Virus record (IMG/VR): IMGVR_UViG_2703718771_000002
Source of the DNA: a virus
Taxonomy: Duplodnaviria; Heunggongvirae; Uroviricota; Caudoviricetes
Length of the DNA stretch: 11,449 bases
Strand: one strand, 5' to 3'
The notes beneath the pieces were generated by a model. That model did not search any database, had not been told where the DNA came from, and worked only from the letters and a program-made list of their open reading frames with translations. Made by a program: the position numbers and the translations under genes. Positions 3,650 to 3,717 of this stretch are shown here, in pieces. Each line of letters begins with the position of its first letter. Positions within the stretch are counted from its first letter, which is position 1.

Positions 3650-3688
3650 GAGAGTGGATCTTGAACGGAAATTCTCAAGACTTGAGTC

Positions 3689-3717
3689 TTGCATGCAAAT
3701 CAATTCCTGGATAAACT
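3689..3717 (+). promoter_or_regulatory. Candidate sigma70 promoter for the 3750-4271 gene (TTGCAT, 17 bp, TAAACT), with an overlapping inverted repeat
   Basis: -35 TTGCAT 3689-3694, 17-bp spacer, -10 TAAACT 3712-3717. A perfect 7-bp inverted repeat CAAGACT-tg-AGTCTTG (3676-3691) overlaps the -35. Hexamers were chosen by eye only. Confidence 0.3.

What the first reader, a model, noticed from the sequence alone, without database searches (positions are those of the whole stretch)
3676..3717. Perfect 7-bp inverted repeat overlapping the -35 of the cargo-gene promoter
CAAGACT-tg-AGTCTTG (3676-3691) is a perfect dyad whose right arm overlaps the proposed -35 TTGCAT (3689-3694), and a GCATGC palindrome follows at 3691-3696. 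Dyads on a -35 are typical repressor or activator sites, so the cargo gene may be under dedicated control rather than constitutive.
Basis: seen in the sequence. Interest (0 to 1): 0.4.

Follow-up and report, generated by a model that had tools for sequence, protein, structure and literature searches.

The report
Conserved dyad at a prophage promoter
A small inverted repeat sits on the -35 of the promoter of ECs1184, an uncharacterised Shiga-toxin-phage gene next to the cI repressor; alone it could be chance, but both halves are conserved in distant relatives, so it is probably a regulator binding site, with no experiment yet to prove it.

Summary
The dyad CAAGACT-TG-AGTCTTG (3676-3691) is real and overlaps TTGCAT (3689-3694). 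The window is a lambdoid immunity region of the VT2-Sakai/Sp5 type. The "cargo" gene is H0093/ECs1184, which lies between cI and pL/N.

On its own the dyad is not significant. An equally long perfect inverted repeat appears in about 14% of shuffled promoter regions, and it does not fold as a hairpin. GCATGC is not conserved. No second copy exists in the window or in the 65.5-kb phage.

Comparison across ten diverged lineages changes the picture:
- Left arm: 74% mean pairwise identity. Right arm: 84%. The -10 hexamer: 80%.
- Upstream flank: 37%. The 17-nt promoter spacer: 44%.
- The arms are 2, 1 or 4 nt apart in different lineages, and Serratia has a direct repeat instead.
- One relative (L043) has a second copy touching the -10.

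It is not a cI/Cro, LexA, CII or SoxR site.

The gene product is predicted to have an integrase core-binding-like fold without a catalytic domain. My best reading is a repressor-type operator, possibly bound by the gene's own product. This is inferred, not shown. No TSS data were accessible. Verdict: a plausible new operator of an ordinary kind, of modest interest.

The parts
3620..3649 (+). Intrinsic terminator (hairpin AAAGGTCGCA-gagg-TGCGGCCTTT plus T-run) that ends the cI/DUF3024-remnant transcript. It marks the start of the conserved ECs1184 module.
   Evidence: Folds at -9.1 kcal/mol, z = -6.25. The hairpin GGTCGCAGAnnTGCGGCC plus T-run is conserved upstream of the gene in E. coli, Salmonella, Proteus, Cronobacter and L027. 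Homology to phage Oslo begins here.
3676..3682 (.). Left arm of the dyad, CAAGACT (half-site AAGACT; family consensus A-R-G-A-Y-T). Predicted position -48 to -42.
   Evidence: Mean pairwise identity across 10 lineages is 74%, against 37% for the adjacent flank.
3685..3691 (.). Right arm of the dyad, AGTCTTG. Its last three bases are the start of the -35 hexamer.
   Evidence: 84% mean pairwise identity. AGTCTTGC is invariant in most lineages and lies at a fixed distance from the ATG.
3689..3694 (+). Predicted -35 hexamer, TTGCAT (3 of 6 matches to TTGACA).
   Evidence: Too weak for the consensus scan to list. TTGC and the 17-nt spacing are nevertheless conserved, and Serratia has TTGACT at the same place.
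3691..3696 (.). GCATGC palindrome (part of TTGCATGCAA, 3689-3698). Judged to be chance.
   Evidence: Replaced by GCATAT in Salmonella phages and by unrelated sequence in all other lineages.
3712..3717 (+). Predicted -10 hexamer, TAAACT (TAGAAT, TAGACT or TACACT in relatives).
   Evidence: 80% mean pairwise identity. Constant 17-nt distance from the -35 and 32 nt to the ATG.
3717..3722 (.). TCGATC box (a Dam GATC site) abutting the -10. The predicted start site, g3724/a3725, lies just downstream.
   Evidence: (T/C)CGATC is invariant in the E. coli, Salmonella, Yersinia, Cronobacter, Proteus and Morganella lineages. GATCGA/TCGATC occurs in 15 of 22 lineage clusters, against a maximum of 11 in shuffles. 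The start site is inferred from promoter geometry, not measured.
3738..3746 (+). Purine-rich ribosome-binding region, GAGAGAGAG.
   Evidence: Read from the sequence. ACTTAGAGAGA is conserved in relatives.
3750..4271 (+). The cargo gene H0093 / ECs_1184 / Sp5 ORF23 (173 aa). It has an N-terminal four-helix domain with a core-binding-like fold, an acidic disordered linker and a small C-terminal beta-beta-alpha domain.
4272..4601 (+). Rest of the module: a highly conserved non-coding stretch (4272-4444), the small ORF H0092 (4445-4567) and a terminator (4573-4601), followed by OL/pL.
   Evidence: Annotation of VT2-Sakai, terminator scan, and 90-100% identity to Oslo.

Best explanation
The dyad is a cis-regulatory element of the sigma-70 promoter that drives ECs1184 from the repressed prophage.

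It consists of two inverted A-R-G-A-Y-T half-sites. The right one is fused to the -35 hexamer. The predicted dyad centre is about -40.5.

The most likely mechanism is that a sequence-specific protein binds the two half-sites and competes with RNA polymerase for the -35, giving repression. The best candidate for that protein is the gene's own product, which would hold ECs1184 at a steady low level in the lysogen by negative autoregulation.

Shown:
- the sequence itself;
- conservation of both arms and of the promoter geometry;
- absence of other copies;
- no resemblance to the cI/Cro operators of this phage.

Inferred:
- that the promoter is used;
- that a protein binds;
- that it represses;
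- that the protein is ECs1184.

My estimates: some transcription factor binds here, about 0.55; it acts as a repressor, about 0.4; it is ECs1184 itself, about 0.25.
For: 1. Footprint across ten diverged lineages. Left arm 74% and right arm 84% mean pairwise identity, against 37% for the flank and 44% for the promoter spacer. The -10 hexamer is 80% (from the sequences).
2. The arms stay intact while the bases between them change by insertion or deletion. The spacer is 2 nt in E. coli and Salmonella, 1 nt in L027, Yersinia, Cronobacter, Proteus and Morganella, and 4 nt in L043, L044 and L079. The arms therefore look like the selected units.
3. L043 has AAGACTGATCAGTCTTGC over the -35 and a second AAGACTGATCAGT directly abutting TAAACT. 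The resulting 13-bp-arm repeat has p = 0.003. A site on the -10 can only repress.
4. ARGAYT hexamers are enriched in promoter regions across 23 lineage representatives: 30 sites against 7.9 +/- 2.7 in shuffles. Both orientations are present in 8 lineages, against 0.6 expected.
5. The element travels with the gene through different immunity types and different hosts. The only protein that always accompanies it is the gene product.
7. The protein was detected in non-induced EHEC cultures (PMC7618764) and the gene could not be deleted (PMC5155283). Both fit a gene expressed in the lysogen.
Against: - The dyad alone is not statistically unusual.
- Variable arm spacing, and a direct repeat in Serratia, are atypical for a dimeric operator.
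- Several lineages (L038/L075, L098-L109) have no comparable dyad.
- The half-site motif was derived from six of the lineages in which its enrichment was then counted. In the other 17 lineages the excess is smaller, 15 sites against about 5.8 expected.
- The window-Oslo identity says nothing, because the whole module is 90-100% identical between them.
- The N-terminal domain carries a net charge of -4, has no Pfam Phage_integrase_SAM hit, and Foldseek against viral models found nothing significant. DNA binding by ECs1184 is therefore unproven.
- TCTTG is also part of the ordinary extended -35 consensus.
- No TSS, footprint or reporter data were available.
Confidence: 0.4

Rival explanations
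1. There is no dedicated regulator. The promoter is a weak constitutive 'moron' promoter. The right arm is simply the extended -35 (tcTTGnnn). The left arm is conserved because it contributes to polymerase binding (an alpha-CTD or upstream contact) or because of shared ancestry. The symmetry is incidental.
For: - The dyad is at chance level on its own.
- TCTTG matches the extended -35 consensus (established knowledge).
- There is no second copy anywhere.
- Arm spacing is not conserved.
- Several family members lack any dyad.
- Deeper lineages have A-tracts upstream of the -35 that look like UP elements.
Against: - The left arm (CAAGACT) is not A/T-rich like an UP element, yet it is conserved at 74% while the next 9-10 nt upstream are at 37%.
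- The arms survive insertions and deletions between them.
- L043 duplicates the whole palindrome at the -10.
- ARGAYT is enriched in both orientations.
Confidence: 0.3
2. It is a binding site for a host transcription factor conserved across Enterobacterales. The factor acts as a class II activator, centred near -41, that compensates for the weak -35 (TTGCAT, 3 of 6).
For: - The predicted centre, -40 to -41.5, is the classical class II position. This follows from geometry on the sequences.
- The -35 is poor enough to fail the consensus scan.
- The element is kept in phages of E. coli, Salmonella, Yersinia, Cronobacter, Proteus and Morganella.
Against: - The sequence does not match CRP (TGTGA-N6-TCACA), FNR (TTGAT-N4-ATCAA), the LexA box or the CII site. 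It fails the SoxR box on spacing and position.
- A 1-3-bp shift of the left arm would disturb a class II activator.
- The second copy on the -10 in L043 argues for repression.
- I could not name any host factor that matches.
Confidence: 0.15
3. It is a nucleic-acid structure (a hairpin or cruciform) acting as a terminator, an attenuator or a processing site for transcripts reading through from cI.
For: Inverted symmetry is kept with a variable 'loop'. Some deep lineages have long inverted repeats followed by T-rich sequence.
Against: - The window dyad folds at -3.8 kcal/mol, z = -0.95, with no T-run. A strong terminator already lies 30 nt upstream.
- Single-arm substitutions are not compensated. 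They are wobble-compatible on opposite strands in Proteus and Cronobacter.
- Serratia has a direct repeat.
- Rfam finds nothing.
Confidence: 0.03
4. It is an extra operator for one of the phage's known regulators: cI, Cro, CII or LexA.
For: Its position, immediately downstream of cI inside the immunity region.
Against: - The six annotated operators follow AAATACA-N3-TGTAYTT and share nothing with the dyad.
- Oslo has the identical dyad with a Cro only 43% identical and a diverged cI HTH. Other lineages combine the half-sites with other immunity types.
- There is no TTGC-N6-TTGC and no CTG-N10-CAG at this position.
Confidence: 0.02

Closest known systems
Autoregulatory operators that overlap the promoter of small phage or toxin-antitoxin regulator genes (for example type II antitoxin operators, or P22 Arc/Mnt at Pant)
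   Same: A short palindrome overlaps a core promoter element of the gene that may encode its own binding protein. The gene is expressed from a repressed prophage. One relative (L043) has two operator copies covering the -35 and the -10.
   Different: Binding has not been shown. There is only one copy in the window. Half-site spacing varies between lineages. The putative DNA-binding domain has a recombinase core-binding-like fold, not an HTH, RHH or AbrB fold. No partner toxin has been identified.
Integrase-fold prophage repressors of SPbeta-like phages (MrpR/YopR, SroF)
   Different: MrpR and SroF keep the whole recombinase fold, core-binding plus catalytic-like domain, at about 320 aa. ECs1184 has only the core-binding-like domain plus an unrelated 45-aa C-terminal domain. 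There is no sequence similarity, and the host is Gram-negative and lambdoid. The phage also has a canonical cI.
Lambda rexAB / pLIT and other 'moron' cassettes between cI and pL
   Same: The same map position, downstream of cI and upstream of OL/pL/N. It has its own promoter, is flanked by terminators, and is expressed in the lysogen.
   Different: The proteins are unrelated. No exclusion or defence function is known, and PADLOC gives no hit. The promoter carries a conserved dyad.
SoxR box (CCTCAAGTTAACTTGAGG)
   Same: The overlapping dyad CTCAAG-a-CTTGAG (3674-3686) has the same 6-bp arms.
   Different: Its centre is 1 bp, not 4 bp. It lies upstream of the -35 of a 17-bp-spacer promoter, not between the -35 and -10 of a 19-bp-spacer promoter. 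It is not conserved in other lineages.

Membership tests
Sigma-70 promoter | -35 and -10 hexamers close to consensus, 16-18 nt apart | tested here: inconclusive
   TTGCAT-17-TAAACT gives 7 of 12 matches, below the scan's threshold, so it was not listed. Relatives have stronger hexamers: TTGACT, TAGAAT.
Sigma-70 promoter | Hexamers and spacing conserved while the spacer sequence drifts | tested here: met
   The -10 is at 80% and TTGC is conserved. The spacing is 17 nt in 10 of 10 lineages, and the -10 to ATG distance is 32 nt in 9 of 10 (31 nt in L038). Spacer identity is 44%.
Sigma-70 promoter | Mapped transcription start | not testable with these tools
   dRNA-seq of Sakai exists (PMC7547250, Dataset S1) but is not held as text.
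cI/Cro operator of this phage | Match to the 17-bp operator consensus AAATACA-N3-TGTAYTT | tested here: not met
   All six annotated operators were extracted and share nothing with the dyad.
cI/Cro operator of this phage | The site co-varies with immunity specificity | tested here: not met
   The identical dyad occurs with a 43%-identical Cro and a diverged cI HTH in Oslo. The same half-sites occur next to other repressors.
LexA (SOS) box | CTG-N10-CAG with an A/T-rich centre at the promoter | tested here: not met
   The only such match in the window is at 9661. Sister lineages do have one, on an insert upstream of the dyad, but the window does not.
CII-activated promoter | TTGC-N6-TTGC straddling the -35 | tested here: not met
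   TTGCATGCAAATCA has no second TTGC.
SoxR box | 18-bp palindrome with a 4-bp centre, between the -35 and -10 of a 19-bp-spacer promoter | tested here: not met
   The arms match, but the centre is 1 bp and the site lies upstream of the -35 of a 17-bp-spacer promoter.
Intrinsic terminator / structured RNA | Stable G+C-rich stem followed by a T-run, or a match to a known RNA family | tested here: not met
   -3.8 kcal/mol, z = -0.95, no T-run. No Rfam hit.
Dimeric repressor operator (autoregulatory) | Dyad symmetry overlapping a core promoter element | tested here: met
   A perfect 7+7 dyad overlaps the -35. Symmetry is 5-6 of 6 in 8 of 10 lineages.
Dimeric repressor operator (autoregulatory) | Fixed half-site spacing | tested here: not met
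   The spacer is 1, 2 or 4 nt, and Serratia has a direct repeat.
Dimeric repressor operator (autoregulatory) | Sequence-specific binding by the regulator, and repression in vivo | not testable with these tools
   Needs EMSA or footprinting and reporter assays.
Tyrosine-recombinase core-binding (SAM-like) domain (for the ECs1184 N-terminal domain) | Four-helix fold that superposes on known core-binding domains | tested here: met
Tyrosine-recombinase core-binding (SAM-like) domain (for the ECs1184 N-terminal domain) | Sequence-profile match (Pfam Phage_integrase_SAM families) | tested here: not met
   No Pfam or NCBIfam hit. No sequence relative in the PDB.
Tyrosine recombinase (whole enzyme) | C-terminal catalytic domain with the R-H-R-Y active site | tested here: not met
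   The protein is 173 aa. After the linker there is only a 45-aa beta-beta-alpha unit.

The most novel reading that the evidence does not exclude
ECs1184 is a stand-alone, integrase-derived core-binding-domain protein that binds A-R-G-A-Y-T half-sites. It autoregulates through this evolutionarily plastic dyad, with its DNA-binding domains tethered by a long flexible linker. It acts as a second, essential lysogeny-maintenance regulator of Shiga-toxin phages alongside cI, for example by keeping a lethal or inducing function silent, possibly the conserved downstream small ORF or non-coding region. That would explain why it could not be deleted from Sp5.
Probability: 0.15. Interest if true: 0.65.

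Novelty: new member of a known kind. Interest (0 to 1): 0.3.

Why it matters
ECs1184 is one of only two early-region genes of the Stx2 phage Sp5 that could not be deleted, and nothing is known about its function or control.

If the dyad is a real operator, it gives a concrete way into that gene: a 16-bp target for footprinting, reporter assays and depletion experiments. If the gene product binds it, this would be a recombinase core-binding domain reused as a regulator in a lambdoid phage, with possible consequences for how stable Stx prophages are.

If instead the promoter is constitutive, the element is ordinary promoter architecture and the finding has little consequence.

Tried and rejected
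- Other copies of the dyad. There are none in the window at up to 3 mismatches. Half-site pairs in the whole VT2-Sakai record are at chance level. The exact 16-mer in IMG/VR gives 24 hits in the family promoter context and 30 in unrelated contexts.
- cI/Cro operator: rejected.
- LexA box and CII site: absent at this position.
- SoxR box resemblance of the overlapping dyad: checked against the literature and rejected on spacing, position and lack of conservation.
- Hairpin or terminator: rejected. Rfam gives no hits in the window.
- Alternative sigma factors (sigma-32, sigma-E, sigma-54 motifs) and a divergent minus-strand promoter using the left arm as its -35: inspected by eye in the sequence. 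No acceptable -10 partner exists, and the flank is not conserved.
- GCATGC / TTGCATGCAA palindrome: not conserved.
- Oslo conservation as evidence: discounted, because the whole module is 90-100% identical.
- TSS data: the Sy et al. 2020 dataset is not held, and no paper gives a TSS for ECs1184.
- Protein annotation: no Pfam, NCBIfam or PADLOC match, and PHROGs gives only an unknown-function family. PDB sequence search and Foldseek against viral models gave nothing significant. The AlphaFold database library was unavailable.
- RcsB, CRP, FNR, IscR and MetJ-like motifs: compared from memory only. None fits the half-site spacing. These were not tested with a tool.

Full report
**What the window is.** Domain searches and annotated relatives show a lambdoid immunity region.
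- On the minus strand: a replication O-like gene (823-1644), cII (1825-2121) and cro (2263-2478).
- On the plus strand: cI (2595-3248), the "cargo" ORF (3750-4271), the small ORF H0092 (4445-4567), a terminator (4573-4601), three OL operators with pL (4735-4810), nutL and N.
- Window 3250-4750 is 99.9% identical to phage VT2-Sakai (prophage Sp5 of E. coli O157:H7 Sakai) and to many other Stx phages.
- The cargo gene is H0093 = ECs_1184 = Sp5 ORF23. It holds the map position that rexAB holds in lambda.
- The depositors annotated operators, promoters and terminators across this region, but nothing at the dyad.

**Check of the observation.** The sequence is as described.
- CAAGACT-tg-AGTCTTG spans 3676-3691. 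TTGCAT is at 3689-3694, TAAACT is 17 nt further on at 3712-3717, and GCATGC is at 3691-3696.
- Statistically the dyad is unremarkable. Perfect 7-bp inverted repeats with this spacing are expected 0.65 times per window, and 8.3 times with spacers of 0-10 nt.
- In the 80-nt promoter region, shuffles reach an equally long inverted repeat about 14% of the time.
- As a hairpin it is no better than shuffled sequence, z = -0.95. The terminator 30 nt upstream (3620-3649) has z = -6.25.

**Known regulators excluded.**
- The six cI/Cro operators follow AAATACA-N3-TGTAYTT and do not resemble the dyad.
- Salmonella phage Oslo has the identical dyad, but its Cro is only 43% identical and its cI HTH has diverged.
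- There is no LexA box (CTG-N10-CAG) or CII site (TTGC-N6-TTGC) here.
- The overlapping dyad shares its arms with the SoxR box, CCTCAAGTTAACTTGAGG. That box has a 4-bp centre and lies between the -35 and -10 of 19-bp-spacer promoters (PMC4411124). The window element fails on spacing, on position and on conservation.
- Rfam finds nothing in the window.

**Other copies.**
- There are none in the window, even at 3 mismatches.
- In the full 65.5-kb VT2-Sakai record the half-site pair occurs only at this promoter. In all, 4 loose pairs were found against 2.6 +/- 1.6 expected.
- The exact 16-mer occurs 54 times in IMG/VR. Of these, 24 are in this promoter context and 30 are in unrelated contexts, consistent with chance.
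- So there is no regulon, and any regulation is local.

**Comparative evidence.** I collected homologues of ECs1184 from genomes, viral contigs and metagenomes, down to about 33% identity. In the closer lineages (those at about 52% protein identity or more for which flanking DNA was recovered) the gene lies directly downstream of a cI-type repressor and before N, whichever immunity type the phage has.

The window-Oslo comparison turned out to be uninformative. The two modules are 90-100% identical everywhere except the linker and C-terminal coding part.

The diverged lineages are informative. Ten lineage representatives were aligned in register on the -35 and -10:

| Segment | Mean pairwise identity |
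|---|---|
| Upstream flank | 37% |
| Left arm | 74% |
| Right arm | 84% |
| 17-nt promoter spacer | 44% |
| -10 hexamer | 80% |

- The -35 to -10 spacing is 17 nt in all ten lineages. The -10 to ATG distance is 32 nt in nine of them and 31 nt in L038. This supports the promoter assignment, even though TTGCAT/TAAACT is too weak to pass a consensus scan.
- The arms are therefore under selection comparable to the core promoter hexamers.
- The distance between the arms is not conserved:

| Lineage | Dyad | Spacer |
|---|---|---|
| E. coli, Salmonella | AAGACT-tg-AGTCTT | 2 nt |
| L027, Yersinia | AAGACT-t-AGTCTT | 1 nt |
| Cronobacter | AAGACT-t-AATCTT | 1 nt |
| Proteus, Morganella | AAGATT-a-AGTCTT | 1 nt |
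| L043 (L044 and L079 have degenerate versions) | AAGACT-gatc-AGTCTT | 4 nt |
| Serratia | GAGTCTT-tct-AGTCTTG (direct repeat) | not applicable |

- In L038 the symmetry is lost.
- Single-arm substitutions are not compensated. They would be wobble-compatible on opposite strands in Proteus and in Cronobacter, which argues against an RNA or DNA stem.
- In L043 the 13-bp core of the palindrome occurs twice, over the -35 and directly abutting the -10 (p = 0.003). That is the arrangement expected for a repressor.
- Deeper lineages carry other, sometimes highly significant, dyads around the -35. An example is GATTCATCGATC-N14-GATCGATGAATC with 12-13-bp arms, p = 0.003. They also share CGATCGA boxes.
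- The degenerate half-site ARGAYT is enriched in promoter regions across 23 lineage representatives: 30 sites against 7.9 +/- 2.7 in shuffles, with both orientations in 8 lineages against 0.6 expected.
- That enrichment carries a caveat. The motif was derived from six of those lineages. In the other 17 the excess is 15 sites against about 5.8 expected.

**The gene product.**
- ECs1184 has no Pfam, NCBIfam or PADLOC match. It belongs to PHROG 2602, of unknown function.
- An AlphaFold2 model built on 30 homologues gives a confident four-helix N-terminal domain (pLDDT about 90), a disordered acidic linker whose length varies (residues 102-127), and a beta-beta-alpha C-terminal unit.
- There is no catalytic domain.
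- Cautions: the N-terminal domain has a net charge of -4, there is no sequence-profile support, and Foldseek against viral models found nothing significant.
- From the literature: the gene could not be deleted from Sp5, and the authors suggest it is needed for stable lysogeny (PMC5155283). The protein was recovered from non-induced EHEC but was not a convincing RNA binder (PMC7618764).

**Interpretation.** The evidence fits best with a conserved cis-element made of two inverted ARGAYT half-sites, the right one fused to the -35, serving as an operator.
- Repression is favoured over activation because of the second site on the -10 in L043.
- The element moves with the gene through different immunity types and hosts. 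The only protein that always accompanies it is its own product, which has a plausible DNA-binding fold. Two DNA-binding domains tethered by a long flexible linker would also tolerate the observed changes in spacing and orientation.
- Negative autoregulation by ECs1184 is therefore my preferred mechanism. I rate it at only about 0.25, and "some repressor-type operator" at about 0.4.
- The main rival, at about 0.3, is that this is basal promoter architecture with incidental symmetry.
- A host class II activator is possible, at about 0.15. The predicted centre, -40 to -41.5, and the weak -35 fit that reading, but no known consensus matches.
- Structure-based and cI/LexA/CII/SoxR explanations are essentially excluded.

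**Verdict.**
- The interpretation, "dedicated control", is partly supported. The support comes from comparative data and not from the symmetry itself.
- One part of the finding, GCATGC, is noise.
- The element is a new, unannotated member of a familiar class, a promoter-overlapping operator-like dyad in a prophage moron.
- Its interest lies mainly in giving experimental access to an uncharacterised Stx-phage gene that could not be deleted.

Noticed in passing
window 3258-3591: The 'empty' 370 nt between the cI stop codon and the terminator is a decayed DUF3024 gene. tblastn gives 81-85% amino-acid identity to the intact DUF3024 gene found at the same place in E. coli 95NR1, but with internal stop codons and a frameshift.
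   Followed up: partly
window 4272-4444 (inverted segment at 4296-4309): The non-coding stretch after the ECs1184 stop codon is about 96% identical to phage Oslo, more conserved than the ECs1184 coding region. A 14-nt segment, CAACTCCCCAGTCC, flanked by the 7-bp inverted repeat CAATGTC/GACATTG, is present as its reverse complement in Oslo. This may be a structured RNA or a regulatory region. Rfam has no match.
   Followed up: partly
window 4445-4567 (H0092); L080 2169-2342, L098 2182-2361, L105 2238-2423, L109 2159-2332: The 40-aa ORF H0092 is nearly identical in Oslo. In distant lineages the ECs1184 homologue is instead followed, after about 150 nt, by a conserved 57-61-aa basic small ORF (..RHCRFRRTRAKAGTPDSERKVLDAHKYGYKCWSF..) with no Pfam match. 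This may be a two-gene module, reminiscent of the transcription factor plus small-ORF modules next to phage repressors (PMC10432266).
   Followed up: partly
L027 2840-2935, L041 2840-2935, L039 2760-2855, L007 and L042 about 2850-2900 (not present in the window): In sister lineages a roughly 60-bp insert lies between the conserved terminator and the dyad. It carries a -35-like TTGAC(A/G) and a LexA-box-like CTG(A/G)GTTCAT(A/G)TACAG. In three lineages this is followed directly by the hairpin AACCCTCnnATGAGGGTTTTTTT. It may be an SOS-controlled promoter or a tiny transcript upstream of the same gene.
   Followed up: partly
window 3717-3722, and promoter regions of L080-L108: A Dam site box, TCGATC, abuts the -10 and is invariant in the close lineages. 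CGATCGA boxes flank the -35 in most deep lineages: GATCGA occurs in 15 of 22 clusters against a maximum of 11 in shuffles. The promoter might be sensitive to methylation or SeqA.
   Followed up: partly
window 3780-3797: A perfect 8-bp inverted repeat, TTCAAGGA-ct-TCCTTGAA, lies inside the ECs1184 coding sequence about 105 bp from the promoter dyad. It encodes the conserved peptide FKDFLE, and the symmetry is imperfect in relatives, so it is probably a by-product of the coding sequence.
   Followed up: partly
window about 5600-11449: Beyond N and the H0090-like ORF (5331-5582) the window does not follow VT2-Sakai, which has ea10-cIII-kil-gam-bet-exo. It encodes a Rad52/22-family recombinase (6335-7042), followed by ORFs at 7043-7549 and 7558-8106 whose identities I did not check. 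The window therefore comes from a different mosaic prophage that shares the Sp5-type immunity module.
   Followed up: no
window 5331-5582: This ORF matches ECs1180 (Sp5 ORF21), the only other Sp5 early-region gene reported as impossible to delete (PMC5155283). It has no Pfam or NCBIfam match (PHROG 2471, function unknown).
   Followed up: no
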